Assembly: GCA_052327205.1 (NCBI GenBank) | Contig: CM126203.1 | Coordinates: 226,858,001 to 226,922,000 of the forward strand | DNA: 64,000 nt | Source of the DNA: Somniosus microcephalus | Lineage: Eukaryota | Reading direction: 5' to 3' | The notes under the pieces: model-generated | Told to the model about the DNA's origin: nothing | The model's input: only the letters and a program-made list of their open reading frames with translations | Databases searched by the model: none | In this document: one piece after another, positions 2,197-29,625 of the stretch | How positions within the stretch are numbered: position 1 is the stretch's first letter | How the letters are laid out: each line of letters begins with the position of its first letter | Made by a program: the position numbers and the translations under genes

Positions 2197-2442
2197 TGAT
2201 GCACTATCAACAACACCAAAGACTACGAGTTGAACTTATACGAAGTAGACTTTTATTGACTAAGAACTGGAGCATGCCTCTGCTAGTGGATCCATCCTAA
2301 GAGCTCCCGGGGGAAGGGTGGTGAGTCACCTTTATACCCAGGCTTAGGGGTGGAGCCAGGGGCGGAGACATGCCCAGACCTGTACAGAGTTAACAGTGGT
2401 TTACCACACAGACATGTACAGAGTTAGCAGTGGTTTACCACA
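2197..2442 (-). repeat. 3' LTR of Gypsy-1
   Basis: Direct repeat of 6311-6556. Confidence 0.95.
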
Positions 2443-2484
2443 TTCACCCCTCATTTAAAAAAGAGTCCGGCGGGGTGAAGTGTT

Positions 2485-6287: not shown

Positions 6288-6310
6288 GTCGAAAATTTAG
6301 TCAATAAAAT

Positions 6311-6556
6311 TGATGCACTAACAACAACACCAAAGACTACGAGTTGAACTTATACGAAGTAGGCTTTTATTGACTAAGAACTGGAGCATGCCTCTGCTAG
6401 TGGATCCATCCTAAGAGCTCCCGGGGGAAGGGTGGTGAGTCACCTTTATACCTGGGCTTAGGGGTGGAGCCAGGGGCGGAGACATGCCCGGACCTGTACA
6501 GAGTTAACAGTGGTTTACCACACAGACATGTACAGAGTTAGCAGTGGTTTACCACA
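6311..6556 (-). repeat. 5' LTR of Gypsy-1 (promoter: TATAAA at 6445-6450, AATAAA at 6366-6371 on the minus strand, GC boxes)
   Basis: Direct repeat of 2197-2442; gag ATG lies 23 nt downstream. Confidence 0.95.
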
Positions 6557-8921
6557 CTTCTTGAGTGTTGTTGGAGCTACACTCATCCAGGCAAGTGGAG
6601 AGTATTCCATCACACTCCTTACTTGTACCTTGTAGATGATAGAAAGGCTTTGGGGAGTCAGGAGGTGAGACACTCGCCACAGAATACCTAGCCTCTGACC
6701 TGCTCTTGTTGCCACAGTATTTATATGGCTGGTCCAGTTAAGTTTCAGGTCAATGGTCATCCCCAGGATGTTGATAGTGGGGGATTTGGCGATGGTAATG
6801 TCGTTGAATGTCAAGTGGAGGTGGTTAGACTCTCGCTTGTTGGAGATAGTCATTGCCTGGCACTTCTGTGGCACAAATGTTACCTGCCACTTATCAGCCC
6901 AAGCCTGAACGTCGTCCAGCTCTTGTTGCATGCGGGCATGGACTGCTTCATTAACTGAGGAGTTGTGAATGGCACCGAACACTGTGCAGTCATCAGCGAA
7001 CATCCCCATTTCTGACCTCATGTTGGAGGGAAGGTCATTGATGAAGCAGCTGAAGATGGTTGGGCCTAGGACACTGCTCTGAAGAACTCCCGCAGCGATG
7101 TCCTGGGGCTGTGATGATTGACCTCCAACCACCACAACCATCTTCCTTTGTGCTAGGTATGACTCCAGCCAGTGGAGCATTTCCCCCCCAATTCCCATTG
7201 ACTTCAGTTTTACTAGGGCTCCTTCATGCCACACTCGGTCAAATGGTGCCTTGATGTCAAGGGCAGTCACTCTCACTTCTCCTCTGGAATTCAGCTCCTT
7301 TCTCCATTTTTGGACCAAGGCTGCAATGAGGTCGGGAGCCGAGTGGTCTTGGCGGAACCCAAACTGGGCATCAGTGAGCAGGTTATTGGTGAGTAAGTGC
7401 CGCTTGATAGCACTGTCAATGACACCTTCCATCACTTTGCTGATGATTGAGAGTAGACTGATAGGGCGGTAATTGGCCCAATTGGATTTGTCCTGCTTTT
7501 TGTGGACAGGGCATACCTGGGCAGTTTTCCACATTGTCGGATAGATGCCAGTGTTGTACTAGAATAGATTGGCTAGAGGCGTGGCTAGTTCTGGAGCACA
7601 AGTCTTCAGCAGGATAACCGGGAGTTTGTCAGGGCCCATAACCTTTGCTGTATCCAGTGCGCTCAGCCGTTTCTTGATATCATGTGGAGTGAATCAAATT
7701 GGCTGAAGACTGGCTTCTGTTATGGTGGGGACCTCAGGAGGAGGCCAATATGGATCATCCGCTCGACATTTCTGGCTGAAGATAGTTGCAAACGCTTCAG
7801 CCTTGTCTTTTGAACTCACGTGCTGGGCTCCACCATCATTGAGGGTGGGGATATTCATGGAGCCTCCTCCTTTCGTTGGTTGTTTAATGGTCCACCACCA
7901 TTCACGACTGGATGTGGCAGGACTGCAGAGCTTTGATCTGATCCATTGTTTGTGTGATCGCTTAGCCCTGTCTCTAGCATGCTGCTTCCGCTTTTTAACA
8001 TGCATGTAGTCCTGTGTTGCAGCTTCCCCAGGTTGGCACCTCATTTTTAGGTATGCCTGGTGCTGCTGCTGACATGCTCTTCTACACTCCTTATTGAACC
8101 AGGGTTGATCCCCTGGCTTGATGGTAATGTTAGAGTGAGGGATATGCTGGGCCGTGAGGTTACAGATTGTGGTGGAATAGAATTCTGCTGCTGATGGCCC
8201 ACAGTGCCTCATGGATACCCAGTTTTGAGCTGCTAGATCTGTTCTGAATCTATCCCATTTAGCACGGTGGTAGTGCCACGCAACACGATGGAGGGTGTCC
8301 TCAGTGTGAAGACTGGACTTCGTCTCCACAATGACTGTGCGGTGGTCACTGCTACCAATGCTGTCATGGTCAGATGCATCTGTGACAGGTAGATTGGTGA
8401 GGACGAGGTCAAGTAGATTTTTCCCTCGTGTTGTTTTTCTCACCACTTGTCGCAGGCCCAGACTGGCAGCTATGTCCTTCAGGACTCAGCCAGCTCAGTC
8501 AGTAGTGGTGCTAACGAGTCACTGTTGGTGATGGACATTGAAGTCCCCCACCCAGAGTACATTCTGTGCCCTTGCTACTCTCAGTGCTTCTTCCAAGTGG
8601 TGTTCAACATGGCAGCATACTGATTCGTCAGCTGAGGGAGGGCAGTAGGTGGTAATTTTTCCATAATTTTAAACACTTTAGTCATATCCTCCTGAAATCG
8701 GCATTGTTCTAATAAAAAAAGACCCAATTTTTCAAGATTTTCTTCATATTTCTATTTCCTCATCTCACGATCAGCAAACTCAGTACAGACTGGAGGGATT
8801 TTCCAGATCTGTGATGTTCAGTATCACAAGTTGTGCATTCACCCACTGATCTATGTTTCTATCACTCTCATTGGAAAAAAAAATACAGTTCCTTTAGCAA
8901 AACTAACAGAAGGTATAGAAC

Positions 8922-10300: not shown

Positions 10301-11464
10301 TGACTTCTGCACTTGAATCAACACTCCCTGTCACCAAAAAAACTTGAAGTAACTAAGTAGAGCTGTTTCAGTTGCAGGAAGTAGCAAACAGGCACTGAAA
10401 CTGCAAAACCCTGTCAGGTACAGCTGACTGGGGATGGTGCCTTTAAATATCGCTGCTGCAGCCTGTTTCCTGCTGGTAGATGCCAGCTCTTCCTGTTGTT
10501 GTTCTGTGCTGCCATTAAGGTAAGTGGCTATAATGAAGTGAGGAGATTGGATGTCCAGTGAGCATTGTACACTCACTGACGTCACAATCTCCATGATGGC
10601 AAGGTCCCTGGCGATCGAGTTTACTGGCAGCGCTACCGGAAACACCGATATGGCATGCGGCGCTGGAACTGGCATTAGCTTTCGTTACAGCTGTCAATGG
10701 TGTTTTAGCACCATCTTGTGGCGCTAACATGTGGCGCAAATCACGTGAATAGCTCGCCCTATGCATCTGGTTGGGTGAGCACAAGATCAGCTGCCCTTGT
10801 TGCCGATGGTCTATATGAAGGATGGCCTGTCGGGTAAGACATTCATGGGCTACTACATACTGGCACTTGTAGAACTACATTGTCCCATATTCAGGTGAGG
10901 AAGAGATAAGTTGGGTGGGGAATCAAAGCTATTAAGTAGTTTAATTATAAGACTAAGATTCTGAGAATATTTTGACAAGAAAGGAGAGTGCGTTCATGAA
11001 ATATTGTTCTGCAAAACTATTTTGGGTGAAGGGAGAATAGCCATGCATTGTGTCTGTGCAAGAACAGCCTTGATGGGCCACGTGACTTTATCCTATTTCA
11101 ATCTTTCTTATGTTCTTTGTCATTATGTGGATGATATATTTGAAGATGATTTATGTTGTCACATTATGCATTATGTAAACAAATGAAAAAGGTTTGCTAA
11201 ACATTCTTCATGTAGATGGTGATGCTCAAAATGGGGTTGTTGACAGTTGACTATTTAATATGGTATTGAGATTCTACCACCAACAATCAGCCAAAGTACA
11301 TATATAAATGATTAAAAACAAATATAGAAGCAGTCCTGTCATCCCATTTTGACATCCACTTTAAATGTGTGTGGGATGAACAGAGTGGTTAAGTGTTTCA
11401 GCCAAATTGCAACCTGACACTATCTCCTCGACAGTGCGTGGAATATTAACAGATACAATAAGCT

Positions 11465-11677
11465 TGTAATATATGTACCTTTAAGGGGAGAACTACTTTT
11501 TACAGCTCCTGTATACTGTAGTACCGGCAGTGACCACACCTGTATATAAACCCTGAGTAGTGATCTGTACATTTAGTTCTAGAGTAACCCTCATTCAGTA
11601 AACACCTATTGAATCATTCCCTGCAGCCTGTTGTCTGGTTATTGAAGGACACAACATTAAGATACACGGACATAACA
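11465..11677 (+). repeat. 5' LTR of Gypsy-2
   Basis: Direct repeat of 23689-23901. Confidence 0.95.
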
Positions 11678-11959
11678 TTGGCGACGAACAGATTCGAACC
11701 TACCTGCAACTCTGCATCACCTCCCAGGGATTCGCTCCTGGAGAACAGTGGAAGAAGGTCGAGTCCAGAAGCACGGGCGTCGACCACGGGCAACCGCCCA
11801 GTCATCCAGCGGAGATTTGAGCATCGCAGGGGAGGCTGTCGAGAGCCAGGCTTGGCTTTCCAGTCACGGTGGTCCAGCGAAACGGGCTGGCAACAGGTAC
11901 TGCGCAGACCCTTCCCGGACAGCGACGGGCTAGAGCCCGACCGAGCGGCACAGAAAAAG

Positions 11960-12369
11960 GCCGAGCAACGTCGACGGGGGAGAGAGAGAGGGCAGAGCGC
12001 ACAGGGCGCAGCCGGTGTTCAGGACAGAGCGGCGTCAACGGGGGAAAGAGGCGCGCAGGAAAATGCGCAGAGCACAGCCGGTGTTCAAGGGCCGAGCAGC
12101 GTCAACGGGGGAGAGAGGCGTGCAGGAAAATGCGAGGTGCTGCCATTGCCACGAGGACCGCAGAGAGCGGCGTTGGCAGCAGCGCAGGAGCAGCACACGA
12201 AACCCACAGGGCGTCGCCATTTGCCACGAGGACCGCCGAGAGCGGCGTTGGCAGCAGCGCGGGAGACGCCATTTTAAGCCGCAGCGGGGGAGAAAGGAAA
12301 GCGCGGGAGACGCCATTTTAAGCCGCAACGGGGAAGAAAGGAAAGCGCGGGAGATGCCATTTTAAGCCA
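11960..12369 (+). repeat. Direct repeats in the Gypsy-2 5' leader (~66-bp x2, ~75-bp x2, 44-bp x3)
   Basis: CCGGTGTTCA at 12012/12078; GCCACGAGGACCGC at 12148/12223; (C/T)GCCATTTTAAGCC at 12267/12311/12355. Confidence 0.85.
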
Positions 12370-12387
12370 GTCTAACCACACCCAAAA

Positions 12388-15300
12388 ATGCTGAAGAGTG
12401 GCAGTATCACAGCGTTCGACAATGAAGTCGAAGATTGGACGACATATGTCGAACGCATAGAAGTATACTGCAAGGCGAATGAAGTGCCAGATGACAAGAA
12501 AGCGCTGTTATTGTTGAATTCAATGGGTGCCAAAACGTATGGCTTACTATGAAACCTAGTAACCCCAGAGAAGCCAGTAGAAAAGGATTTTGAAAACATA
12601 GTGTCAATCCTACAGGACCACTTAAACCCCACACCGCTGCTGATAGCAGAAAGATTTAAGTTTCACAAAAGGAACCAGCATAAAGATGAAAGTAATGCTG
12701 AGTATTTAACAGAACTGCGCAAGCTATCGAAACACTGCCAGTTTGGAACGGGACTAGCAGATACTTTAAGGGACAAGTTTGTGTGTGGGCTTCAAAGTGA
12801 AGGAACCCAAAAATGGCTTCTATCAGAAAAGGATCTTACGCTGGACAAGGCTTTCAGCATTGCAGTATCACACGAAGCAGCAGCACAGGGCGCTGCAGAG
12901 ATACAACGGAGACCGCAAGAATATGGCACAAATGAAATGTCATACGGAACAGTGAAGTGCTATCGCTGCGGCAGAACAACACACGACCATAATGATTGCT
13001 GGTTCAAGGACAAAGTGTGCAGACAGTGTGGAAAAGTAGGACACATAGCAAGAGTCTGCAGGTCGGGAAAGAAAACCAGCAGCAAGAAATCTCCACAGGA
13101 GAAGTACAAGAAGGTACATAAGGTGACGGAGAGTAGTTCAGACGAACAGAAGAGTGATACAGACTCCGGAAGCAAGGAGCTGGGTTGTCTGAAACTACAT
13201 AATGTGATCAAAACGGAGGATCACCAAACTCACGCTCAAGCGGCTATTCTCACATATACCCTTGAGTGATACAAAGATTGTCTTGAAGACGTACACGGGG
13301 CAAAAATTCTACCCCAAAGGAAAAATAAGGGTGAACGTTATATATAACGGCAAGGAAACACCAAAAATGGACCTATATGTATTGCCAGATGGAGGACCAC
13401 CACTACTAGGACGTGAATGGATCCGGAAGATACAGCTAGATTGGCATTCCATACAGGCACTGACTGTGGCTGACAAAAAGGATGATGACGTCACACCTGG
13501 GCGACTGTCAAAGATCCTAACTGACGCGAAAGAAGTGTTCCAGCAAGGACTTGGAACACTAAAAGGCATGACAGCGATGATTAAAATTGAAGAAAACGCA
13601 AGCCCAAAATTTTTTAAGGCCAGACCGGTACCTTATGCGATCCGCCCAGCCGTCGAAGCAGAGCTGGAGAGTCTGGAACGTTCAGGTGTACTGTCCAAGG
13701 TAGACTGGAGCGAGTGGGCTACACCCATCGTCCCTGTGATGAAAAAGTCATTGAGCAGCACGCCTGGGGAACCAAGGAAGGTTCACATCTGTGGGGACTT
13801 CAAGGTAATAGTGAACCCGGTCCTTCACACCGTACAATATCCACTTCCGCGGATTGAAGATATTTTCGCCTCGCTATCTGGATGGAAAGGCTTCACTAAG
13901 ATTGATCTGGCCCAGGCATATCTGCAAATGGAGGTAGAAGAAGCATCAAAAAAATACCTCACAATCAACACCCATAAAGATCTCTACCAATACAATCGGC
14001 TGGTATTCGGGGTAGCATCAGCTCCGGCTATTTGGCAGAGGGCAATGGAACAAGTCCTGCAAGGGATCCCAGGGACCCAGTGTTATTTGGACGACATCCT
14101 GGTCACGGGCGAAAATGACAGTGATCACCTTGCCAACCTGGAGCAGGTGCTCACTAGATTGCAGGAATATGGGCTCCGAGCTAACCGCCCCAAATGCGAG
14201 TTTTTTGGAAAACAGATCTCGTATTGTGGCCACGTTATCGATAAAGAGGGGTTGCATAAGTCCCCAGAGAAGATTGAGGCAGTAGTCAAGGCTCCAGCAC
14301 TGGAAAATGTGTCACAACTGAGGTCGTTCCTCGGGCTGGAAAACTACTACCATAAGTTCTTGCCAAATTTGTCTACAATACTACACCCACTGAACACCCT
14401 ACTGCAAACTGGGGTGCCATGGAAGTGGAGTGACAAATGTAGATGAGCTTTCCAGAAGAGCAAAACACTAATCACATCGAAAGAGGTATTGGCCCATTAC
14501 AACCCGGCATTACCAATTCGGTTGGCATGTGATGCGTCACCCTACGGCATTGGAGCGGTGCTGTCGCACAAATTCTCGGACGGCTCAGAGAGGCCAATAG
14601 CCTTTGCGTCACGATCACTAACCTCAGCCGAGCGTAACTACGCCCAGATTGACAGGGAGGCCCTCAGCCTAGTGTGGGGAGTGAAAAAGTTCAATCACTA
14701 TCTGCACGGGCAGAAGTTCACCTTGCTGACTGACCACCAACCACTTGTCTCCATCTTTAATCCAAAGAAGGGCGTTCCGGTGATGACTGCGCAACGGCTA
14801 CAAAGATGGTCCCTTTTTCTCGGGGCGCACCAATATGAAATCGAGTATAAGGGCACGAAACAGCATGGAAACGCTGATGGGCTATCACGCCTGTCACTGC
14901 CTACTGCGGAGGAAGAACCAGCAGTGGATCCTGTCGAAATATTTTATTCGACTATAATTGAATGCTTGCCAGTAACTAACGCTGGTACAGAGAAGGAGAC
15001 CCGAAATGACCCGACACTGTCTCGGGTATATGATTTGACGGTGAAGGGATGGCCAGCACATGGCGACTCACTGTTGCCAGCATTCTCATCCAGAAGAGAA
15101 CAGCTGTCAGTATGCGAGGGGACCTTGATTGTGGATCCCGAGTGGTAATTCCACCCAAGTTAAGGGAGAGAGTGCTCAATGAGCTTCACGAAGGTCATCT
15201 GGGAGGGGTAAAAATGAAAAGCCTTGCTAGGGCATATGTGTGGTGGCCGGGGATCGATCAGCAAATCGAGGACCTGACAAAGAGCTGCTCAGGATGCCAG

Positions 15301-15761
15301 AAGGTCCAAAATGCACCACCACAAACCCCTCTACACCCATGGGAGTGGCCCTCATCTCCATGGCAATGAGTGCATATTGATTTTGCTGGTCCATTCATGG
15401 ACTCAATGTTTTTAATAGCCGTGGATGCGCACTCGAAATGGCCTGAGGTGATCAAAATATCCTCCACCACCACGGAGAAAACTATTGCAGTCCTACGGAC
15501 CATTTTTGCCAGGAACGGCTTGCCAGAGCAGATTTGCTCTGATAACGGACCACAGCTTGTGTCCGAAGAGTTTCGAAGATTTATGAAAAGGAATGGGGTA
15601 AGGCATTACACACCCGCCCCGTATTATCCAGCCACAAATGGATTGGCTGAGAGGTTCGTACAAACCTTTAAGAAGGCAATAAAGGCTATGTACAATGACA
15701 ACATTCCGCTGTAGCACACGGTGGACAATTTCCTGTTCGCCTACTGGAATGCGACACATGC
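12388..15761 (+). pseudogene. Gypsy-2 gag-pol (gag, partial protease, RT, RNase H, integrase N-terminal part)
   Basis: gag with CYRC..H..C and CRQCGKVGHIARVC; RT (WATPIV, CGDFK, DLAQAY, YLDD); RNase H (CDASPYG, TDHQPL); integrase HHCC, DFAGP, SDNGPQ, NGLAER; stops at 12550, 14444, 15367 and 15712; protease active site deleted near 13218. Confidence 0.92.
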
Positions 15762-16194
15762 TGTAGTGGCGCTTCTTAGTTTCCAAACAGGCAGCCACTG
15801 AGCTGTGGGGCTGTTAACAACGAGTAGACGCGTGTTGAAATAAAACGTTCCCAAACGTAGCTTTGTCTTTTAAACTGTTTACTATAACACTTCACAAACG
15901 GAATTACAAAGCAAACACGTATAAACGAACACGGTCAAAAACTGTATTGCTCCAAACCTCACAACTTCTGCCTCCTTCAGCCACGTGGAGTTTAAACTGT
16001 AAAATGGCTGCATACCATGTGTGGCTTAGGGACTGTACCATTGTGGCAAGAATGAAGGGGGTGTCTCGGACTATACTACTGGAGCAAGAAAATAGGGGGT
16101 TTCTTAATACAATAAGTCAATCAGGTAAATTAACTGTATTATGCTATTTAACCAATATTTTAAAGTATTTTCTTAAGCTTTTATGGCTCTTACA
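15762..16194 (-). repeat. 3' LTR of BEL element
   Basis: Apparently identical to 22647-23079. Confidence 0.96.
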
Positions 16195-16315
16195 TTCCGG
16201 CCCCTAATTGACTAGGCACATGAAGCGTATCAATTACTCAAACATTAAGAGTCATAAACTAATGAGTTCAACATATTTACAATATAAGTGTCCACTTTTT
16301 TCGTTCAGGAACTTT

Positions 16316-19300
16316 TCACGCTGCTTCTTGTAGCAGGCAGAGCTTTGTGATCGGTCTTTCCAGGGTACTGGTCTTGGTTTGCAAACAAACGCGACCAACG
16401 ACGCCTCTGGAGTCTGGAGTGTTCTTAATTATTTTTCCCATCAACCAAGAATTTCTGGGGGCTGAATCATCCACGATTAAGACAATGTCTCCGGCAATGA
16501 AGTTCCTCTTTATTTTGGACCATTTTTGACGCTCCTGTAGCAGAGGTAAGTATTCTCTTGTCCATCTGGTCCAGAAAAGGTCTGACATATACTGAACTTG
16601 CCTCCACTTCCGACGGGCATACAGATCTTCCTTTTTGAAGACTCCCGGGGGCATGGCTGGCTGTGTTTTCAACAACAACAGGTGGTTCGGAGTCAGGGCT
16701 TCGAGGTCATTGGGATCATCTGATGTCTTAGTTATCGGTCGGTCATTAATGATGGCTTCGACCTCGCACAGAACGGTTTGGAGTCCCTCGTCGTTGAGCG
16801 CTTGCTGCTTCAGTACAGAACTGAGTAGTTTTCTTACGGTGCGTATCTGTCTTTCCCAGACACCTCCATGGTGGGATGCAGCCGGAGGATTGAAGATCCA
16901 CTTAATTCCTGTTTGCATCATGGCTTCCTGTATTTTAAGCCGATTCCAACCTTCAATAGCTTCCCGTAGTTCTCTCTCCGCTCCGACGAAATTAGTGCCA
17001 TTATCAGAACGCATAATGGACACCTGACCTCTTCTACAGACAAAGCGCCGCAAGGCGTTAATACAGGAATCAGTGTCAAGCGTGTGTGCCACCTCAATAT
17101 GAACTGCTCTGATGGTCAAACAAGTGAAAAGCACACCATATCTCTTGACAAGGCTCCGTCCTCGCTTTACCTCGAAAGGCCCGAAATAGTCCACCCCTAC
17201 GTTTGTAAATGGGGGCTTGTCTGGTAACAAACGGTCTTCAGGCAGGTCTGCCATTTTCTGCTCCCCAGCTCTAGCGTGTAACCGTCTGCAAACAATGCAT
17301 TCAGAGAGTATTTTTCTTATTACAGAATTAGCTCCTGGAATCCAGTATCTTTGTCTTAGCTTCGCAAGCACGTGATTCCTCCCACTGTGTCCAATACTCT
17401 GGTGTATATGCTGAAGAATGAGAGTAGCAACCCGGAGGTCCTTAGAAAGGATAGCAGGATGCTTGGCCTCCTCTGGCATAGCAGATTTGTTTAGTCTCCC
17501 TCCCACCCTCAGTACTCCATCTTGCAGTGTAGGGTCCAGCTTGTAGATATGACTACCTTTCTTGATTGGAGTATTTCGCTGTAAAGCTTCGATTTCTTCT
17601 GGGTATCTTTGTCTTTGACTGAAGCAAACTATCTCCATCTCAGCCTTGGCCAAATCCTCCATGGTCAATGAATTCTTACCCAATGTGGTCTTGTGCTGAT
17701 GCATATACTGCTGTAGAAGCATTCTCTGCTTATCGGGGTTACTTTCAGACTGACTGATAGTGGCTCGGTACTCTTTTCTCTTACCGCTCAGGTGTAGCAG
17801 CGACTCTTTCAACCTTAGAAACCATGCAACTGCTTTCCTCAACTGGTGCCATCCTGAGAAATGGTTAACAAGCTTGTTCACTGTGTCAAAGTTCTCTTTC
17901 GTAGTTATGAGATTTACTGTGACTGATCTCTTGACTTCGACGTCGTCTTCAGCAATCTGACTTGGCATATCTGGTCTTTCTGGCCATGATCTCTCTGTTT
18001 CCAGCAGATAACTTGGGCCTTGTATCCAAGTTTCACTCCTCATGAAATTTTCAGCCTTCAATCCCCGTGAGGCTTGATCTGCTGGGTTTAATGAGGTGTT
18101 TACATACCTCCATTGAGATGGTTGTGTAGCTTCTCTAATGGATGAGATTCTGTTTGCTACGAAGGTCTTGAAGCGTATCTTCTCATTCTCTATATACTTC
18201 AGCACCGTCGTGCTATCCGTCCAGAAGACAGATTCTCCTAGTGGGAGTTGTAACTCTTTCCGCATCGCCTGGTCAACTTTAACTGCAACAACCGCTGCCG
18301 TCAACTCCAGTCTCGGGATGGTGACCTGCTTCAGCGGAGCCACCCTGGATTTCCCCATGAGGAAGGCACAATGTTTCTGGCCCTGTTGATTTGTCAGCAA
18401 GAGGTAAGTAGCCGTGCCATAGCCGTCCTCACTGGCGTCCGAGAAATGATGTAGTTGAGCCGTCTTTGTAACTCCAAAACTCACGGGCTTGATGCATCTA
18501 CTGACGTTGAAGCTAGAAAGTTGTTGCAAATCTGTCAACCATCTGTGCCATCTCTGAGCTTGACCTTCTGGGATATCTTCATCCCATCCTCTCTTGTCTC
18601 TACACAGCTCTCGTAGCATCAGCTTCACCAGCAGAATGAGTGGTGCCAGGAATCCAAGAGGGTCGTAGATGGAACTGACCACGGAGAGAATCCCTCGTCT
18701 TGTGGATGGTCTTTCGTTCACCATTATCCTGAAGTTGAACGTGTCTGACTCAATGCACCATTGTACACCAAGAGCTCTCTCGATAGGAAGGACATCGTGG
18801 CTCAGGTCCAGATCTTTGACTTCAGTGGCTCTTTCCTTTTCTGGGATAGAAGCTAGAACTGCTCTGCTGTTGCTTATCCACTTAGTCAGATGGAATCCTC
18901 CATTCGAACACAGAGTTCTAAGGTCTCTTGACAGTGCGATGGCATCGTCTTCTGTTGACACGGACTTCAGACAGTCATCGACATAAAAGTTTCTGAAGAT
19001 TGTCTCCACAGCCTCTGATGGTGCTTTGCCTTTGCCATCTTCTGCAGTTTTTCTGAGAGCGTAGCTTGCACAGCTGGGAGATGATGTGGCTCCGAACAAG
19101 TGTACGGCCATTCTACATTCCACCATCGCTTGACTAACGTCGCCATCTGGCCACCAAAGGAAACGCAGAAGATCAGCATCTTCATCAGGGATTCTGACTT
19201 GGTAGAACATTGATTCTATGTCTGCCATCATGGCAACGAGCTCTTGTCTAAACCTAGTCAAGACGCCAATGAGGGTATTAGTAAGATCAGGACCTTGAAG

Positions 19301-20530
19301 CAGCTGGTCATTCAGTGAAGTTCCTCTGAATGAGGCGGCGCAGTCAAACACTACACGGATCTTTTTCTTCTTTGGGTGATACACACCGTGATGAGGAATG
19401 TACCAGACCCTTCCATCGTCTCTGTTCAACTGTTCCTCGGGCACTTTTACAGCATAGCCTTTCGCTATGATGTTTCTCATGAAGCCTTTGTAGTCTTCGT
19501 GAAAGTCGGGGTTCTTGTTCAGCTTTCTCTTTAGACTGATGGCATGTTGCTCTGCTATGCTGCGATTGTTCGGCATCTTCGTGGTCTGTCTTCTCAGTGG
19601 CAAACCAATGTGATAGTGGCCATCAATGAACTGTGTAGACCTTGTCATCAAATCCATGAACTGATGGTCTTCTTGTGACATCTCTGTCTTTTCCTCACAG
19701 CTGCGTTCTGAAAAGTCTGCGTTGAACTGCTGTATCAACAGCTCTTCAATGCTTGCGATAGAGATGCGATTAACTGTGACATTTTGTCGTTCCTCCTTGT
19801 TCGACTTGTTGCCACCATCTCTCCTTACCGGTCCATTGACTACCCATCCAAGGGCTGTCCTGACGGCGTAGGGTCCGTCATCCTTGCTGTTTATCACCTG
19901 CCATGGCTCCATAGTTTTGTAGGCATTGGTTCCAATTAATAGGCCAATTTCTGCTTCAATGTATGGGAGACGCACCTTTTCTAGGTAAGGCCATCTATCC
20001 ACATCCTTCTGCAGGGCTAAGTTCCCTATTCTAACAGGAATCTCCCTCTGTGTGAAAACATTAGGCAGGTCTATGAAGTCCTTCTCTTCAAGTCCACACA
20101 CTTCTAAGTCTGACAGGATATAACTTTGCATTGACTTCTCATGACCCATGGTGCGTAATAGGATTTCTGTTCTTCTGCCTCTAACGTTCAGCTGTCGCAT
20201 GAGTGATTCTGTGCAGAACGTTGCTGAACTACCTGGATCCATGAAGGCATAAGTCTCCACAAGCTTCTCGCTCCTCTTAGACTTGATCTTTACTGGTACG
20301 ATGGCAAGAATACAATCGCTGTCACCGGCCCCAGTGAGTCCACAAGTCTCTGGTTCTAGCGACACCAGAGCACTTGAAACAACCTTCTCGTCGGTATTGT
20401 TTTCTTCACTCTTCTTAGAGACTTGTTCTTCTTTATGGATATGCAGCAGACTGGGATGTTTCCGAGTGCACTCTCTGCATGTTGTTCTTTGCTTACAGTT
20501 TCTACTCAGGTGCCCGAGAGAGACATCCAA
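16316..20530 (-). CDS. BEL/Pao pol region (end of zinc knuckles, aspartic protease, RT, RNase H, integrase), 1404 uninterrupted codons
   Basis: AFMDPGS protease; WYIPHHGV, RVVFD, GPDL, FGATSSP, FYVDD (RT); FSDAS, TIPRLEL, WTDS, NPAD (RNase H); RVGGRL, H..H..C..C, GVDYFGP, SDNGTNF, GGVWER (integrase); terminal RPITKL. Confidence 0.95.
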   Translation of the reverse strand: MDVSLGHLSRNCKQRTTCRECTRKHPSLLHIHKEEQVSKKSEENNTDEKVVSSALVSLEPETCGLTGAGDSDCILAIVPVKIKSKRSEKLVETYAFMDPGSSATFCTESLMRQLNVRGRRTEILLRTMGHEKSMQSYILSDLEVCGLEEKDFIDLPNVFTQREIPVRIGNLALQKDVDRWPYLEKVRLPYIEAEIGLLIGTNAYKTMEPWQVINSKDDGPYAVRTALGWVVNGPVRRDGGNKSNKEERQNVTVNRISIASIEELLIQQFNADFSERSCEEKTEMSQEDHQFMDLMTRSTQFIDGHYHIGLPLRRQTTKMPNNRSIAEQHAISLKRKLNKNPDFHEDYKGFMRNIIAKGYAVKVPEEQLNRDDGRVWYIPHHGVYHPKKKKIRVVFDCAASFRGTSLNDQLLQGPDLTNTLIGVLTRFRQELVAMMADIESMFYQVRIPDEDADLLRFLWWPDGDVSQAMVECRMAVHLFGATSSPSCASYALRKTAEDGKGKAPSEAVETIFRNFYVDDCLKSVSTEDDAIALSRDLRTLCSNGGFHLTKWISNSRAVLASIPEKERATEVKDLDLSHDVLPIERALGVQWCIESDTFNFRIMVNERPSTRRGILSVVSSIYDPLGFLAPLILLVKLMLRELCRDKRGWDEDIPEGQAQRWHRWLTDLQQLSSFNVSRCIKPVSFGVTKTAQLHHFSDASEDGYGTATYLLLTNQQGQKHCAFLMGKSRVAPLKQVTIPRLELTAAVVAVKVDQAMRKELQLPLGESVFWTDSTTVLKYIENEKIRFKTFVANRISSIREATQPSQWRYVNTSLNPADQASRGLKAENFMRSETWIQGPSYLLETERSWPERPDMPSQIAEDDVEVKRSVTVNLITTKENFDTVNKLVNHFSGWHQLRKAVAWFLRLKESLLHLSGKRKEYRATISQSESNPDKQRMLLQQYMHQHKTTLGKNSLTMEDLAKAEMEIVCFSQRQRYPEEIEALQRNTPIKKGSHIYKLDPTLQDGVLRVGGRLNKSAMPEEAKHPAILSKDLRVATLILQHIHQSIGHSGRNHVLAKLRQRYWIPGANSVIRKILSECIVCRRLHARAGEQKMADLPEDRLLPDKPPFTNVGVDYFGPFEVKRGRSLVKRYGVLFTCLTIRAVHIEVAHTLDTDSCINALRRFVCRRGQVSIMRSDNGTNFVGAERELREAIEGWNRLKIQEAMMQTGIKWIFNPPAASHHGGVWERQIRTVRKLLSSVLKQQALNDEGLQTVLCEVEAIINDRPITKTSDDPNDLEALTPNHLLLLKTQPAMPPGVFKKEDLYARRKWRQVQYMSDLFWTRWTREYLPLLQERQKWSKIKRNFIAGDIVLIVDDSAPRNSWLMGKIIKNTPDSRGVVGRVCLQTKTSTLERPITKLCLLQEAA

Positions 20531-22484
20531 AACACAGGCCGTTGTACTTCAGGAATTCGATTCTGTCCTTATGTGGCTGTGCTTTGATGTCGCTGCAGAA
20601 ATCCAATGTATGATTCTTCTGGCAGAATAAGCATGGCTTCTGAAAGGCATTAGCAGGCGTCACTGTGCTGCTCTTTTTGGGAGATGAGTTCTGGGGCCTT
20701 TCTTCCTCAGCCTGAGTGATGATAGTTGCAAAGCTGCTTCCCCTGGAACCACCTTTCCTGAGAGTCTTTGATTCAACAGGCTTGGCTTTCACTCTTCCAT
20801 CGGTGGTCGGGCTGGCGTCCTGGATGTTTCCAAACAATGGGTCTCTAGCAATTTTAGCCTGTTTGTCTATGAAATTCACTAAGTCTGCAAACCTGGCTCT
20901 ACTTTTCCGTCTCTCCATTATCTCAAAGGCTGTTCTTCTCCATTGTTCTCTCATCCTGTAAGGAAGCTTAGAGATGATGATTCTCATAGTCATAGGATTG
21001 TCCATCTCTTCCATGAATTCAACATCCTCCATGGTGTTGCGACATCCTATGAGGAAAAGAACATATGCGTTCAATGCCTCTCCGTCCTCCGATCTGATCT
21101 GTGGCCACTTGGTAGCCTTTTCAATATATGCAGTGGCTATCTTCAGCTCGTTACCATAGTGCTCCTGCAGCAACTTCCTGGCTTCTATGTATCCCCGGTC
21201 CGGTCTCATGTGTTCACAGCTTCTGACCAGGTCTTGTGGTTTACCACTGGTGTACTGTCCCAGGTAGTACAACTTATCACTGCTGCTCTCTGTTTTGGAG
21301 TCAATGGCTTGTTCAAAGGATCTGATGAAGGGCATATACTTGAGTGGGTCACCTTGGAACACTGGTATGTCTCTTTGAGGGAGTCGAAACAGATTCTGTT
21401 GTTTTACAAGCATCTCTGTAATTTCGTTCTGACGTTGCATCACTCGGTATAGGCTTCTCCCTGTGTCTTCAGGCCTCTGGTGGTCATCAGCAGGGTCTAG
21501 TCTAGACCGTCTGACGTCTGGGGTAGCATCACGTGCTCCTGTTAGTGGAGAGGCCACTCTTCCACGCTGTAATGCCAGGGGATTGCCTTCGGACTCTCTT
21601 GTAACTCTTGAAGGTGCCCTGGATCCAACTCTATGTGACAGCATTGACTGGCAGTATTCGCTCCCGCCGTCCCGTGAGCCTTCATAATCTTCATACGCAC
21701 TCAACCTGACGTCTGAGACCGCAATAGCTGTTTTTATCTCCAGCTGTTCTTTCTTTGCCTGCACCTGGGCCTGTTGGGCCTGCAGTTGGGCCTGCACTTG
21801 GGCCTGCAGTTGGGCCTGTTGGGCCTGCAGTTGGGCCTCTTGGACCTGCAGTTGGGCCTCTTCCCGTTCAAGAGCTTGCTTCTCCGCTAAAGATGCTGCG
21901 CGCGCCATCAACGCCGCCCGTTCAACCTCCTCTCTCATGCGTCGCGACGAGCTTGTGGTAGAAGCGACTGACCTGCGTCCAGAAACAGAGCTACCTTCTT
22001 TTCGATTTTTGCTCGGTCTGGCGGAAGTCTCTGAAATGCTATCGTCTGGTCCGACTTCATCGTCAACTTTATCTTTCTCTGCTGCATCAGCATCTTGACG
22101 AATCTTTAACATCCACTGTTCTGTGGCGGTGATATAGTCCTTAATGCTGGTTGATTTAAGATCAAACCAGTTGTGCTGATCAGCGTTTCCCTCTTCTTCA
22201 GACAGAAGTGCTAATACATCTTCATTGAGTACATTAAATTCTTCATGCAGCTTGGAGAAATCGTAATACATTATGTCTTCAGCTTTCTTAATATTAACAT
22301 TATCTTCCATGAGACGATCAATTATCTTCATTTTTCCAGTTATCTGAGCTAATTTAGCCTTCCTTGCACCTATGCTTCTATGTAACTTCTCTTCCATTGC
22401 CTTTGGGGGGAGCTTTATTTCCCTCTTTTGGCCAGCAATCCTTCTGGCTGGGGGAAGCTCCTGGCTCCGTAAGGCCTCGGCCAT
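20502..22484 (-). CDS. BEL/Pao gag region, out of frame with pol by one frameshift at ~20515
   Basis: Coiled-coil/Q-A-rich N-terminus, capsid-like FQGDPLKY..F..KLYYL region, CLFC..H..C and CFGCL knuckles. Confidence 0.9.
   Translation of the reverse strand: MAEALRSQELPPARRIAGQKREIKLPPKAMEEKLHRSIGARKAKLAQITGKMKIIDRLMEDNVNIKKAEDIMYYDFSKLHEEFNVLNEDVLALLSEEEGNADQHNWFDLKSTSIKDYITATEQWMLKIRQDADAAEKDKVDDEVGPDDSISETSARPSKNRKEGSSVSGRRSVASTTSSSRRMREEVERAALMARAASLAEKQALEREEAQLQVQEAQLQAQQAQLQAQVQAQLQAQQAQVQAKKEQLEIKTAIAVSDVRLSAYEDYEGSRDGGSEYCQSMLSHRVGSRAPSRVTRESEGNPLALQRGRVASPLTGARDATPDVRRSRLDPADDHQRPEDTGRSLYRVMQRQNEITEMLVKQQNLFRLPQRDIPVFQGDPLKYMPFIRSFEQAIDSKTESSSDKLYYLGQYTSGKPQDLVRSCEHMRPDRGYIEARKLLQEHYGNELKIATAYIEKATKWPQIRSEDGEALNAYVLFLIGCRNTMEDVEFMEEMDNPMTMRIIISKLPYRMREQWRRTAFEIMERRKSRARFADLVNFIDKQAKIARDPLFGNIQDASPTTDGRVKAKPVESKTLRKGGSRGSSFATIITQAEEERPQNSSPKKSSTVTPANAFQKPCLFCQKNHTLDFCSDIKAQPHKDRIEFLKYNGLCFGCLSRAPE
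21755..21860 (-). repeat. In-frame 9/12/21-bp tandem repeats encoding a Q/A-rich coiled coil (AQLQAQQ) in BEL gag
   Basis: Repeated TGGGCCTGCAGT / TGGGCCTGT units. Confidence 0.85.
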
Positions 22485-22646
22485 TTTACCCGCAGCTCTT
22501 ATTTAGCTTCTCAATAGAATGAACAAAGCAAGTAACAGTCACTGTACCTTCGCTTTCTTATATTGTCGTCTGGCTCCGTGACCATTCATGTATACGTTCG
22601 GCGACAATGCCGTCCTTTCCTTCTTAGGGAGCAAGTTTTTGACTAA

Positions 22647-23079
22647 TGTAGTGGCGCTTCTTAGTTTCCAAACAGGCAGCCACTGAGCTGTGGGGCTGTT
22701 AACAACGAGTAGACGCGTGTTGAAATAAAACGTTCCCAAACGTAGCTTTGTCTTTTAAACTGTTTACTATAACACTTCACAAACGGAATTACAAAGCAAA
22801 CACGTATAAACGAACACGGTCAAAAACTGTATTGCTCCAAACCTCACAACTTCTGCCTCCTTCAGCCACGTGGAGTTTAAACTGTAAAATGGCTGCATAC
22901 CATGTGTGGCTTAGGGACTGTACCATTGTGGCAAGAATGAAGGGGGTGTCTCGGACTATACTACTGGAGCAAGAAAATAGGGGGTTTCTTAATACAATAA
23001 GTCAATCAGGTAAATTAACTGTATTATGCTATTTAACCAATATTTTAAAGTATTTTCTTAAGCTTTTATGGCTCTTACA
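22647..23079 (-). repeat. 5' LTR of BEL element
   Basis: Apparently identical to 15762-16194. Confidence 0.96.
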
Positions 23080-23571
23080 CATGCAGTCACCAACCAGGCC
23101 CCAGCCATGATGTTCTTTAACCGAAGGTTAAGATCTCGCCTGGATTTGCTCAGACCAAATGTACGAAGAGATGTTGAGAGTAAGCAATTCCAGCACATCC
23201 ATGAGAAGCCAACAAGGAGCTTCAATGTAGGGCAACCAGTCTTGGCCCGCGACTACCGAACAGAAAAATGGCAGCCAGGAACGATATGCACACAGCAGGA
23301 CCCACTAATGTACACAGTGGACGTTGGGGAGAGCATCGTGAGACGCCATGCTGATCAGATCCTAGAGTCACAGGAACAAGTCAACCCCATGCCTCGCCCA
23401 TACGTACCTGGTGATGAACCCGACATACAGGTAGCATCTACCCCAGAAACAGTGGCATCGGAAGCTGATGAACCAACCGACGACAGGGGGCCAGAATCGC
23501 CTCCGCACCAAGAGCAAGACACTCGGGGAGGCGCTATCCAGAAAGGATCAGGAAGCCTCCCCAAAGACTGA
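23080..23571 (+). pseudogene. Gypsy-2 integrase C-terminus, resuming after the BEL insertion
   Basis: HAVTNQAPAMMFFNRRLRSRLDLLRP..GQPVLARDYR..W..G..RRHADQI continues from NATH at 15750-15761. Confidence 0.9.
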
Positions 23572-23688
23572 ATTTATAAATAGACTATTTGCAGCTAATG
23601 TTGCATGTTAAAAGTGTTAATTGTAATTAGTTTGATATTTAATTGTTAAATGAGTGTTATGGTACTGTTAATCTAAAAGGGGAGGAAT

Positions 23689-23901
23689 TGTAATGGATGT
23701 ACCGTTAAGGGGAGAACTACTTTTTACAGCTCCTGTATACTGTAGTACCGGCAGTGACCACACCTGTAGATAAACCCTGAGTAGTGATCTGTACAATTAG
23801 TTCTAGAGTAACCCTCATTCAGTAAACACCTGTTGAATCGTTCCCTGCAGCCTGTTGTCTGATTATTGAAGGACACAACATTAAGATACACGGACATAAC
23901 A
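23689..23901 (+). repeat. 3' LTR of Gypsy-2
   Basis: Direct repeat of 11465-11677. Confidence 0.95.
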
Positions 23902-26850: not shown

Positions 26851-27796
26851 CAGCTGCTTTTGTTTGATCCTGTGCCTGTGCTGAGTTAGCTGACCTCAGT
26901 CATTCTCTGCACCCCCAGGCTAGGGAGGGGAAAATAAAGCCATTGATCTTGTTCCTCTTATCTATGGATAGGCCCTGCTGGATAGTGCATGGAGGTGGCT
27001 ACAGGGTGGGGGGCCAGGTGTACATTCGGCTGCAATGGTCCCAAGGGTCAGATAGGCTGTCAACATTGGCTGTCTAGGCTCACATTTGAAGAAAGGCCAC
27101 ATGGGCGAGTTGCCAGAGGCTACTGGCACCTTAGACCCATATCCCATGAAGAAATGCCACTGTTCGGAGAGAAGGGTCAAATTGGAAAAAAAATTCAAGG
27201 CGAGACCATATGCGTTTTGAAATAGTTGATACCCCTCCCCCAAATCCTTGATACCTTAGGGACAGCTAACCATCATGTGTGCAGATGGGTGAGTGTAGTA
27301 TTTTACTGCTGAACTCCAGTGCCAGCAATGTTTTGGACATTATCGTTGCTTCAAGCACCTCTGCTTTCTATGAGATCAGGAAATTGAGCTTTGCGGGTAA
27401 ATCATTTCTTTGAGGCGCTCAGTTTAATTTGTTTCAATGTAGTGAGATTTTACCGAACTTGGCTGTATGCTTCCGAGAGACAGAAGTTGTACTATCATTT
27501 GTGCAGACAGCAGGAAACTAAAGCTCTTGCAAGATACTTCCTTCTCCACCCTCCCCCAACTTTTTCTAGGGAAACTTTCACTTTAGTAACTCTTGAGATT
27601 ATAAATCGGACACTGCCCTAAGCCCCTCTCACTGCGTAGTGATGTCACTCCCTTCTTGTATATGTTTATAAACAGAATCATTATGCAACAGTGGTAAATG
27701 TTATATATTTTGTATGTGGATTGGGATTGCAATACCGCAATACTTTTGCACATCTCCACAAAGAAACGTTGGTTGGGTTTGTACTTCATTCAGGAG

Positions 27797-29290
27797 GGAG
27801 CCTGGGCGGCAGGGTCCTAACTGTGGGATGGGGCCCAGGCGGCAGGGCCCTAACTGTGGGATGGGGCCTTGGCGGCAGGGCCCTAACTGTGGGATGGGGC
27901 CTTGGCGGCAGGGCCCTAACTGTGGGATGGGGCCCAGGCGGCAGGGCCCTAACTGTGGGATGGGGCCTTGGCGGCAGGGTCCTAACTGTGGGATGGGGCC
28001 TTGGCGGCAGGGCCCTAACTGTGGGATGGAGCCTTGGCGGCAGGGCACTAACTGTGGGATGGGGCCTTGGCGGCAGGGTCCTAACTGTGGGATGGGGCCC
28101 AGGCGGCAGGGTCCTAACTGTGGGATGGGGCCCAGGCGGCAGGGCCCTAACTGTGGGATGGGGCCCAGGCGGCAGGGCCCTAACTGTGGGATGGGGCCTT
28201 GGCGGCAGGGTCCTAACTGTGGGATGGGGCCTGGGCGGCAGGGTCCTAACTGTGGGATGGGGCCCAGGCGGCAGGGTCCTAACTGTGGGATGGAGCCTGG
28301 GCGGCAGGGTCCTAACTGTGGGATGGGGCCCAGGCGGCAGGGTCCTAACTGTGGGATGGGGCCCAGGCGGCAGGGCCCTAACTGTGGGATGGAGCCTGGG
28401 CGGCAGGGTCCTAACTGTGGGATGGGGCCCAGGCGGCAGGGTCCTAACTGTGGGATGGGGCCCAGGCGGCAGGGTCCTAACTGTGGGATGGGGCCCAGGC
28501 GGCAGGGCCCTAACTGTGGGATGGGGCCCAGACGGCAGGGTCCTAACTGTGGGATGGGGCCCAGGCGGCAGGGCCCTAACTGTGGGATGGGGCCCAGGCG
28601 GCAGGGCCCTAACTGTGGGATGGGGCCCAGGCGGCAGGGTCCTAACTGTGGGATGGGGCCTAGGCGGCAGGGCCCTAACTGTGGGATGGAGCCTAGGCGG
28701 CAGGGCCCTAACTGTGGGATGGGGCCCAGGCGGCAGGGTCCTAACTGTGGGATGGGGCCCAGGCGGCAGGGCCCTAACTGTGGGATGGGGCCCAGGCGGC
28801 AGGGTCCTAACTGTGGGATGGGGCCCAGGCGGCAGGGTCCTAACTGTGGGATGGGGCCCAGGCGGCAGGGTCCTAACTGTGGGATGGGGCCCAGGCGGCA
28901 GGGTCCTAACTATGGGATGGGGCCTGGGCGGCAGGGTCCTAACTGTGGGATGGGGCCCAGGCGGCAGGGTCCTAACTGTGGGATGGGGCCCAGGCGGCAG
29001 GGTCCTAACTGTGGGATGGGGCCCAGGCGGCAGGGCCCTAACTGTGGGATGGGGCCTGGGCGGCAGGGTCCTAACTGTGGGATGGGGCCCAGGCGGCAGG
29101 GTCCTAACTGTGGGATGGGGCCCAGGCGGCAGGGTCCTAACTATGGGATGGAGCCTAGGCGGCAGGGCCCTAACTGTGGGATGAGGCCTAAGTGGCAAGG
29201 CCCTAACTGTGGGATGGGGTCTTGGCGGCAGGGCCCTAACTGTGAGATGGGGCCTAGGCGACGGGTTGCTACCTTTGGAATAGGACCTAA
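27797..29290 (+). repeat. G-rich minisatellite, 30-bp unit GGCGGCAGGG(T/C)CCTAACTGTGGGATGG(G/A)GCC(C/T)N, ~49 copies
   Basis: Directly visible; homogeneous core with degenerate right end. Confidence 0.98.
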
Positions 29291-29344
29291 TTGGCATACC
29301 TGAATTTCCTCTGTCGTTCTGCAGGACCTGTTGAAGCTCCTGGC

Positions 29345-29625
29345 CACTCCCATAATATCCTGGTGGGTAAAGACATAGTCAGGTGTAACACGAAGCCATA
29401 CAGTCCAGAAAGTCCCAGATTTGATTACCTGTCTTGCCTGAGTTAGCTGATCTCAGCTGGGACAGCATTTGGGGTGCTACAATTGGCTTAAGTGTCCCTG
29501 AGCCACAGAGGAGAAAAATCAGGCATGGTTCCTGGCGCTGCAAAGTGGGTTGTGTGACTACTGACTGAGCTGTGATGCACTCCTTAGTTGAACAGCCTCC
29601 CGAGACTCACTGTCTAGGCTTGTGC
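29345..29625 (+). mobile_element. Old SINE-like repeat; related fragments at ~25230-25500, 26865-27140, 35800-36130, 39560-40125 and 46275-46390
   Basis: Shared motif GAGTTAGCTGA(T/C)CTCAG or its reverse complement, plus a tRNA-like head; boundaries approximate. Confidence 0.5.

What the first reader, a model, noticed from the sequence alone, without database searches (positions are those of the whole stretch)
22628..22838. BEL element has no tRNA PBS; its PBS position pairs with its own LTR (candidate self-priming BEL/Pao)
Seen: on the sense (minus) strand the 5' LTR is followed by TTAGTCAAAAACTTGCTCC rather than TGG.. (the complement of tRNA CCA). Its core GTCAAAAACT (22634-22643) is the perfect 10-nt complement of the LTR segment AGTTTTTGAC (22819-22828). 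Pairing extends a further 6 bp (22628-22633 with 22833-22838) across a 4-nt bulge. The LTR segment begins at an initiator-like CAGTT and lies ~50 nt upstream of an AGTAAA poly(A)-like signal (22763-22768), where R might start. Established: S. pombe Tf1 primes reverse transcription with the first 11 nt of its own RNA annealed to the PBS. Inference: this BEL lineage may prime in the same tRNA-independent way. I cannot tell whether this is already documented for BEL/Pao, and the TSS is not fixed by the sequence (no TATA box at -30).
Basis: partly seen in the sequence, partly recalled or inferred. Interest (0 to 1): 0.75.

Follow-up and report, generated by a model that had tools for sequence, protein, structure and literature searches.

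The report
Self-priming BEL/Pao retrotransposon lineage
This jumping gene lacks the usual tRNA landing site and instead carries a site that matches its own terminal repeat, a match kept with different letters in dozens of relatives (in about half only once an apparent intron is removed), so this whole branch likely starts copying itself with a piece of its own RNA.

Summary
Observation confirmed. The element is a young BEL/Pao (identical 433-bp LTRs, 5-bp TSD). Its PBS has no TGG and pairs with its own LTR by 10 bp plus 6 bp across a 4-nt bulge. Alone this is weak (shuffle p 0.025).

In 45 related elements, none has TGG and the PBS varies (31 different 10-mers). 39 of 45 have a perfect match of at least 10 bp to their own LTR, against 1 of 1942 foreign pairings with a different PBS. 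In 20 of these the full match forms only after removing a GT-AG intron inside the LTR, so the pairing is selected in RNA. One contig holds both LTR forms.

The 6-bp helix is also conserved. With a TATA-like box and weak RNA-seq ends, it puts the start at about 22838-22850, not 22828. The primer is then likely 20-35 nt, not Tf1's 11.

Best reading: tRNA-independent self-priming (0.75); cleavage and priming are untested. The ICTV profile says tRNA-primed, and ten literature searches found no BEL self-priming. This scan noted both the self-priming and the splice-built primer earlier on other genomes.

The parts
22647..23079 (-). 5' LTR, 433 bp, TG..CA
   Evidence: identical to the 3' LTR
23080..23084 (.). 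5-bp target-site duplication (other copy 15757-15761)
22876..22881 (-). TATA-like box, 63 nt upstream of the 3' end of the paired segment; predicts a start near 22850 (inferred)
   Evidence: 12 of 20 TATA-like hits in 40 elements fall 58-66 nt upstream of that end (10 elements, 5 of them close kin)
22833..22838 (-). LTR arm of the second (distal) 6-bp helix; lies near the likely 5' end of the RNA
   Evidence: sense RNA fragments end at 22837 (5) and 22839 (7) at depth 22 in run X7 (weak)
22829..22832 (-). 4-nt bulge between the two helices
   Evidence: varies among family copies at 22832
22819..22828 (-). LTR arm of the 10-bp core helix; predicted 3' part of the self-primer, predicted cut just 3' of 22819
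22763..22768 (-). poly(A)-signal-like AGTAAA, 51 nt downstream of the paired segment
   Evidence: 38 of 40 elements have AATAAA, ATTAAA or AGTAAA downstream of the segment
22644..22646 (-). 3-nt spacer between LTR end and PBS (0-6 nt in relatives)
22634..22643 (-). PBS core, begins GT, no TGG
22628..22633 (-). PBS arm of the distal helix
   Evidence: 22633 varies among family copies
20502..22484 (-). gag frame (DUF1759, zinc knuckles); goes out of frame with pol near 20510-20540, whereas close relatives have one ORF of about 2000 aa, so this copy is likely defective
16316..20548 (-). pol frame, 1410 aa without stops: RT, Peptidase_A17 (Pao) region, integrase, DUF5641
16197..16206 (-). polypurine tract
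15762..16194 (-). 3' LTR

Best explanation
The element's primer-binding site pairs with a stretch of its own LTR instead of a tRNA end, and the element likely primes reverse transcription with its own RNA leader, which would fold back and would be cut to give the primer. Steps: (1) Inferred: transcription starts near 22838-22850. (2) Shown as sequence and covariation, predicted as structure: the leader pairs with the PBS in a 10-bp core plus a 6-bp distal helix across a 4-nt bulge, closing a 175-nt loop. (3) Inferred from Tf1: the element's RNase H cuts just 3' of 22819 and leaves a 3'-OH on the AC end of a primer of about 20-35 nt. (4) Inferred: RT copies the 175 nt of spacer, U5 and R, then jumps to the 3' R; the primer part of the LTR is templated by the 3' LTR copy. 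In about half of the relatives the primer would first have to be assembled by splicing an LTR intron. The window's element belongs to an intron-less, fish-like group.
For: Family is BEL/Pao; named near relatives are nearly all fish proteins. No TGG at the PBS in 45 of 45 elements, while the Gypsy element it sits in has TGG one base after its LTR. In 15 elements whose LTR end was fixed without reference to pairing, contiguous helices of at least 9 bp occur in 8 of 15 own pairings and 7 of 210 foreign ones; 0 of 100,000 permutations reach the observed sum. In the 45-element set, a perfect helix of at least 10 bp occurs in 39 of 45 own pairings, 37 of 1980 foreign ones, and 1 of 1942 foreign ones with a different PBS 10-mer; there are 31 distinct PBS 10-mers, and positions 3-10 each show 3-4 pair types. 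In 20 elements the best helix (10-15 bp, mean 11.7) crosses a GT..YAG intron of 73-1022 nt; joins at control dinucleotides give means of 0-0.6 bp, and weak GT..AG joins 3.3. The intron always falls inside the paired segment, 4-11 nt from its 3' end. Contig L045 holds an LTR copy lacking exactly the 117-nt GT..AG intron present in its other copy. Sisters L001 and L005 differ by three PBS bases with matching changes at the exon-1 end. The distal helix averages 3.89 bp in own pairings and 2.93 in foreign ones, permutation p 4e-5, 37 elements. The helix always ends at the PBS-proximal G in primer orientation. Inference: a minus-strand DNA that copied a spliced leader to its cap would erase the intron, so its persistence fits a leader segment that is primer, not template.
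Against: No priming, cleavage or strong-stop DNA was observed. The single-copy signal is weak (p 0.025; folding z about -0.5). 5 of 45 elements miss the 9-bp cut-off (L007, L024, L044, L080, L090); L007, L024 and L044 have one internal mismatch, L080 ends in a G-U pair, and L090 was scored on an LTR copy with a changed acceptor. L004 and L055 were left out as atypical: their helix does not start at a GT next to the LTR end (read by eye). For 30 of the 45 the PBS position was picked with a pairing scan, and many rows are kin, so p-values overstate independence. The start site is weakly placed: 12 molecules in one run, from other copies in a related organism, and a subfamily diverges in sequence just beyond 22839, which could make false ends. 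How the 3' LTR copy escapes splicing is unexplained. The window copy has a gag-pol frameshift.
Confidence: 0.75

Rival explanations
1. The primer is element-encoded but acts in trans: a separate short or spliced LTR transcript (from a solo LTR, the 3' LTR or the dimer partner) anneals to the PBS of a genomic RNA, which in intron-class elements could stay unspliced.
For: It would explain neatly why the intron is kept in both LTRs of 20 elements. LTR-only transcripts look abundant: many RNA reads leave the LTR at 22647 into other sequence (46 and 70 reads).
Against: It still needs a cut at the AC end, because poly(A)-like signals lie downstream in 38 of 40 elements. In the intron-less group the in-cis fold is predicted at pair probability about 1.0 when the RNA starts at 22838 or 22828, so cis is simpler.
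Confidence: 0.12
2. The helix is a real RNA structure but not the primer. It would serve genome circularisation for strand transfer (PBS with the 3' R copy), dimerisation, packaging or translation control, and the primer would be unknown.
For: The same segment is present in the 3' LTR. Sequence cannot tell which copy pairs.
Against: The helix starts 0-6 nt from the LTR end and covers the place where a primer must sit, in primer orientation. No TGG site is offered there in 45 of 45 elements.
Confidence: 0.09
3. A host tRNA fragment or other host small RNA primes at this PBS, and the LTR match is incidental or a competing structure.
For: tRNA halves prime some copia lineages (PMC6317226 passages). 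Host tRNAs could not be searched. The first two PBS bases are GT in all 45 rows, though GT was part of the picking rule for 30 of them.
Against: There are 31 distinct PBS 10-mers in 45 elements, each tracked by its own LTR and not by others. Sister elements change PBS and LTR together.
Confidence: 0.03
4. Chance complementarity or a DNA-level inverted repeat.
For: p is only 0.025 for this copy alone.
Against: 39 of 45 own pairings against 1 of 1942 foreign ones, and in 20 elements the full match does not exist in the DNA.
Confidence: 0.01

Closest known systems
Tf1/Tf2 of Schizosaccharomyces pombe, Tj1 of S. japonicus and the Tf1/sushi group (Ty3/gypsy chromoviruses)
   Same: PBS complementary to the element's own 5' leader instead of a tRNA. 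In Tf1 the first 11 bases pair and RNase H cuts between bases 11 and 12 (PMC7175516 passages; PMC4600332 passages).
   Different: Different superfamily (BEL/Pao). The paired core is not the first 11 nt: a second helix and bulge lie upstream, and the primer is likely 20-35 nt. In about half of the relatives the complement is split by a spliceosomal-type intron.
Plant Tcn1 (gypsy) and TAR/Houba/Osr-1 (copia) lineages, predicted self-priming
   Same: Predicted by the same rule: at least 10 bp complementary to a region starting 0-5 nt after the 5' LTR (PMC6317226 passages). The window element meets it (10 bp, 3-nt spacer).
   Different: Plant gypsy and copia elements. No intron-split primer or BEL/Pao case appears in the passages seen.
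Belpaoviridae / Semotivirus as described by ICTV (Tas, BEL, Pao, Sinbad, Suzu, Dan, Flow)
   Same: LTR size, gag-pol order, Pao-type domains and polypurine tract.
   Different: The ICTV profile gives an 18-nt PBS complementary to tRNA-Arg or tRNA-Gly and priming by a host tRNA (PMC8742986, whole text). None of 45 elements here has a TGG PBS. Which named BEL/Pao clade this is was not tested, since no named reference sequence was held.

Membership tests
BEL/Pao (Belpaoviridae) | Pao-type pol and gag domains, with RT before integrase | tested here: met
   Peptidase_A17 5e-48, DUF5641, integrase, RT and DUF1759
BEL/Pao (Belpaoviridae) | LTRs of 0.2-1.2 kb, TG..CA, short TSD, polypurine tract | tested here: met
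   433-bp LTRs, 5-bp TSD, PPT at 16197-16206
BEL/Pao (Belpaoviridae) | 18-nt PBS complementary to the 3' end of tRNA-Arg or tRNA-Gly (ICTV profile) | tested here: not met
   no TGG in 45 of 45 elements. It is filed as BEL/Pao by its proteins; the profile's priming statement does not hold for this branch
named BEL/Pao clade (Sinbad, Dan, Suzu ...) | grouping with the named reference elements in an RT tree | not tested
   no named references held; the tree has only the loci found here
Tf1/sushi group | Ty3/gypsy chromovirus proteins | tested here: not met
   BEL/Pao domains: it works like Tf1 but is not a member
Tf1-type self-priming (mechanism) | at least 10 bp between a site 0-5 nt after the 5' LTR and the element's own LTR | tested here: met
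Tf1-type self-priming (mechanism) | the complement is the very 5' end (first 11 nt) of the RNA | tested here: inconclusive
   distal helix, TATA position and weak RNA ends point to a start 10-22 nt upstream of the core
Tf1-type self-priming (mechanism) | compensatory covariation of PBS and LTR segment | tested here: met
Tf1-type self-priming (mechanism) | RNase H cleavage of the RNA duplex and extension from the cut | not testable with these tools
   needs particles or purified enzyme
tRNA-fragment priming (copia half-tRNA type) | PBS complementary to an internal stretch of a host tRNA | not testable with these tools
   no host genome; PBS diversity argues against it

The most novel reading that the evidence does not exclude
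A large branch of BEL/Pao elements, from fish to marine invertebrates, has abandoned tRNA priming for a two-helix self-primer of about 20-35 nt. In much of the branch the host spliceosome builds that primer by joining two LTR exons, which makes reverse transcription dependent on splicing and lets an intron survive inside a retroelement's terminal repeat. The fish group is the intron-less form.
Probability: 0.65. Interest if true: 0.88.

Novelty: new variant of a known kind. Interest (0 to 1): 0.78.

Why it matters
It would add a third LTR superfamily to those with self-priming, and it contradicts the ICTV statement that Belpaoviridae are tRNA-primed. It explains why these elements show no recognisable PBS to tools that look for tRNA ends, and gives a simple annotation rule. 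The relatives suggest a primer made by splicing, which ties retrotransposition to host RNA processing and offers a reason why an intron can persist in an LTR. The predictions are sharp: a start near 22838-22850, an RNA 3' end at 22819 and a 175-nt strong-stop DNA.

Tried and rejected
No whole genome is held, so no copy census or host tRNA search was possible. Two scans of viral contigs found no relative. ARAGORN found no tRNA in the window and Rfam found nothing in 22400-23150 at E up to 5. Whole-leader folding energy is no better than shuffles, so it is not used as support. No RNA holder was listed in the run search; two raw RNA runs added by species label were laid instead. Run X8 is not clearly stranded and was not used for the start site, and no splice joints were seen in the window's leader. 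A start at 22828 was considered and disfavoured. An RT tree did not settle intron loss against gain: 3 changes, midpoint root, quick search only, and the one-clade test did not finish. Rows left out of the 45-element count: 11 of 91 sequences do not reach the gag side. Of the other 80, 35 were dropped on reading: 15 as copies of families already counted, 15 cut off before the LTR segment or PBS, 3 with no recognisable 5' end (L019, L051, L060) and 2 atypical (L004, L055). Literature: ten searches gave no paper that I saw describing BEL/Pao self-priming. Repbase and GyDB entries, most subscription papers and all supplements were not seen and may hold an earlier mention.

Full report
WHAT IS THERE. 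The window holds a complete minus-strand BEL/Pao element at 15762-23079. It has two identical 433-bp LTRs with TG..CA ends, a 5-bp TSD and a polypurine tract at 16197-16206. Gag carries DUF1759; pol carries RT, Peptidase_A17, integrase and DUF5641. Gag and pol go out of frame near 20510-20540, whereas close relatives have one ORF of about 2000 aa, so this copy is likely defective. The named near relatives are nearly all fish proteins at 56-65% identity. The element is inserted in a Gypsy element whose own PBS begins with TGG, an internal control for an ordinary site.

THE OBSERVATION. After the 5' LTR come a 3-nt spacer and 22643-22634, the exact complement of LTR 22828-22819. 22633-22628 pairs with 22838-22833 across a 4-nt bulge. 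For this copy alone the signal is modest: 4 of 200 LTR shuffles give a helix as long, and the leader folds no better than shuffles.

RELATIVES. No host genome is held. An alignment of 30 relatives retrieved 90 loci from genome and metagenome contigs. These are probably animal DNA inside microbial assemblies; hosts were not determined, and 'fish-like' and 'invertebrate-like' are inferences from protein identity and from the marine record titles. In 15 elements I fixed the LTR end without reference to pairing, in 14 from the point where two LTR copies stop matching and in L016 from the contig's terminal overlap. A contiguous helix of at least 9 bp anchored 0-6 nt after the LTR occurred in 8 of 15 own PBS-LTR pairings and 7 of 210 foreign ones; none of 100,000 permutations reached the observed sum.

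THE INTRON. Reading the weak cases showed half of the complement before a GT donor and the rest after a pyrimidine-rich AG acceptor. I noted this before opening earlier scan notes. In the final set of 45 elements (exclusions under Tried and rejected), a perfect helix of at least 10 bp occurs in 39 of 45 own pairings, 37 of 1980 foreign ones, and 1 of 1942 foreign ones with a different PBS 10-mer. There are 31 distinct PBS 10-mers, and helix positions 3-10 each show three or four pair types. In 20 elements the best helix (10-15 bp) crosses a GT..YAG intron of 73-1022 nt; control joins give means of 0-0.6 bp, and weak GT..AG joins 3.3. Some of these 20 keep 9-11 bp on the acceptor side alone, but the full helix needs the join. 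The intron always lies within the paired segment, 4-11 nt from its 3' end. Contig L045 carries one LTR copy with the 117-nt intron and one lacking exactly it, which indicates the intron is really spliced. Sisters L001 and L005 swap three PBS bases with matching changes at the end of exon 1. A match that exists only after splicing cannot be a DNA inverted repeat, and a PBS that changes with its own LTR cannot be tracking one tRNA. No element has TGG at the site (45 of 45).

AGAINST. Five of 45 miss the 9-bp cut-off. L007, L024 and L044 have one internal mismatch, L080 ends in a G-U pair, and L090 was scored on an LTR copy with a changed acceptor. L004 and L055 do not fit the GT rule (by eye). 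For 30 of the 45 the PBS position came from a pairing scan, and many rows are kin, so the p-values overstate independence; the 15-element test avoids the first bias only. The tree needs three changes of the intron label and does not fix their direction.

WHERE THE RNA STARTS. The distal helix is conserved: 3.89 bp in own pairings against 2.93 in foreign ones, permutation p 4e-5, 37 elements. The RNA should therefore include it, which a start at 22828 would not allow. Twelve of 20 TATA-like hits in 40 elements lie 58-66 nt upstream of the segment's 3' end, including the window's at 22881-22876; with the usual spacing of about 30 nt (general knowledge) this predicts a start near 22850. In RNA run X7, which looks stranded, sense fragments end at 22837 (5) and 22839 (7) at depth 22, and sense depth falls from 86 to 6 between 22665 and 22881. 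This is weak: few molecules, other copies in a related organism, and a subfamily that diverges just beyond 22839 (loose ends in X8; DNA depth also dips there). Among the 40 variant rows shown, 22633 and 22832 vary at the junction and bulge and none lies in the core arms; 75 rows were not shown. Predicted core pair probability is about 1.0 for RNAs starting at 22838 or 22828 and 0.22 for one starting at the LTR's first base.

MECHANISM. Shown: anatomy, complementarity, covariation and the splice-dependent match in relatives. Inferred: the leader folds onto the PBS; RNase H cuts after 22819, as Tf1's does between bases 11 and 12 (PMC7175516); RT extends the AC end through 175 nt of spacer, U5 and R, then transfers to the 3' R. 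The primer region of the new LTRs is then templated by the 3' LTR copy. This would explain why an intron can survive there, since copying a spliced leader to its cap would erase it. It leaves open how the 3' copy escapes splicing, which is the main opening for the rival in which a separate spliced RNA primes in trans.

WHAT IS KNOWN. The ICTV profile (PMC8742986, whole text) says Belpaoviridae have an 18-nt PBS for tRNA-Arg or tRNA-Gly. Self-priming is described for Tf1/sushi and predicted for plant Tcn1 and TAR elements (PMC6317226, passages; PMC4600332, passages; PMC7175516, passages). Term searches inside the Sinbad paper (PMC554778) and the BEL/Pao survey (PMC3118150) found no 'PBS' or 'tRNA'. 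Passages of PMC6934838, PMC3601003, PMC8220671, PMC11042837 and PMC5443660 did not mention BEL self-priming. Ten searches listed nothing that I could identify as reporting it. Repbase, GyDB, most subscription papers and all supplements were not seen. Four earlier AI notes of this scan report the same on other genomes; I tested the idea on my own loci, not on theirs. No note exists for this sequence or genome.

VERDICT. The feature is real and lineage-wide. It works like Tf1 self-priming but is not a member of the Tf1/sushi group, and it differs by a longer two-helix primer and, in relatives, a primer likely built by splicing. New variant of a known kind; interest 0.78; self-priming in cis 0.75.

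Noticed in passing
window 11464-23901 (+): Host Gypsy element: 214-bp LTRs 96% alike, TGG-type PBS one base after the LTR, fragmented gag-pol (zinc knuckle, RT, RNase H, integrase); the BEL inserted into its integrase region.
   Followed up: partly
L045 1-214 and 6935-7265: One contig holds an intron-less and an intron-bearing LTR copy that differ by exactly a 117-nt GT..AG intron; it could be a collapsed assembly of copies or an RNA-derived end.
   Followed up: yes
L042, L045, L061, L090 and others: The intron's place within the paired segment differs by up to 7 nt even between neighbours in the tree (4 nt in L090, 10-11 nt in L045 and L061): intron sliding, repeated gain or turnover of the helix. 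Unexplained.
   Followed up: partly
L001 1814-1820, L005: AATAAA follows the paired segment after 1 nt, so the shared R stretch available for strand transfer would be very short.
   Followed up: no
L001-L009 (genome contigs): Full or partial animal-type BEL/Pao elements sit in bacterial MAG records (Rubritalea, Endozoicomonas, Flavobacteriales and others), most likely host contamination.
   Followed up: no
L004 about 140-157 and L055 about 855-868: Two atypical relatives whose helix does not start at a GT next to the LTR end; L004 seems to have a splice-dependent match, L055 a contiguous one of 8-9 bp (by eye).
   Followed up: partly
window 22840-22912: Family copies in related organisms include a subfamily with a divergent stretch upstream of the distal helix (loose ends at 22839, 22864 and 22900).
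   Followed up: no
window 27661-29400: Tandem array of a 33-bp unit, at least 44 copies in register, open in several frames.
   Followed up: no
window 2196-2445 and 6310-6560: 250-bp direct repeat, 98% alike, 4.1 kb apart, without clear TG..CA ends.
   Followed up: no
L002 about 2095-3116: The LTR intron is 1022 nt long and contains a tandem repeat, yet the 11-bp match across it is intact.
   Followed up: partly
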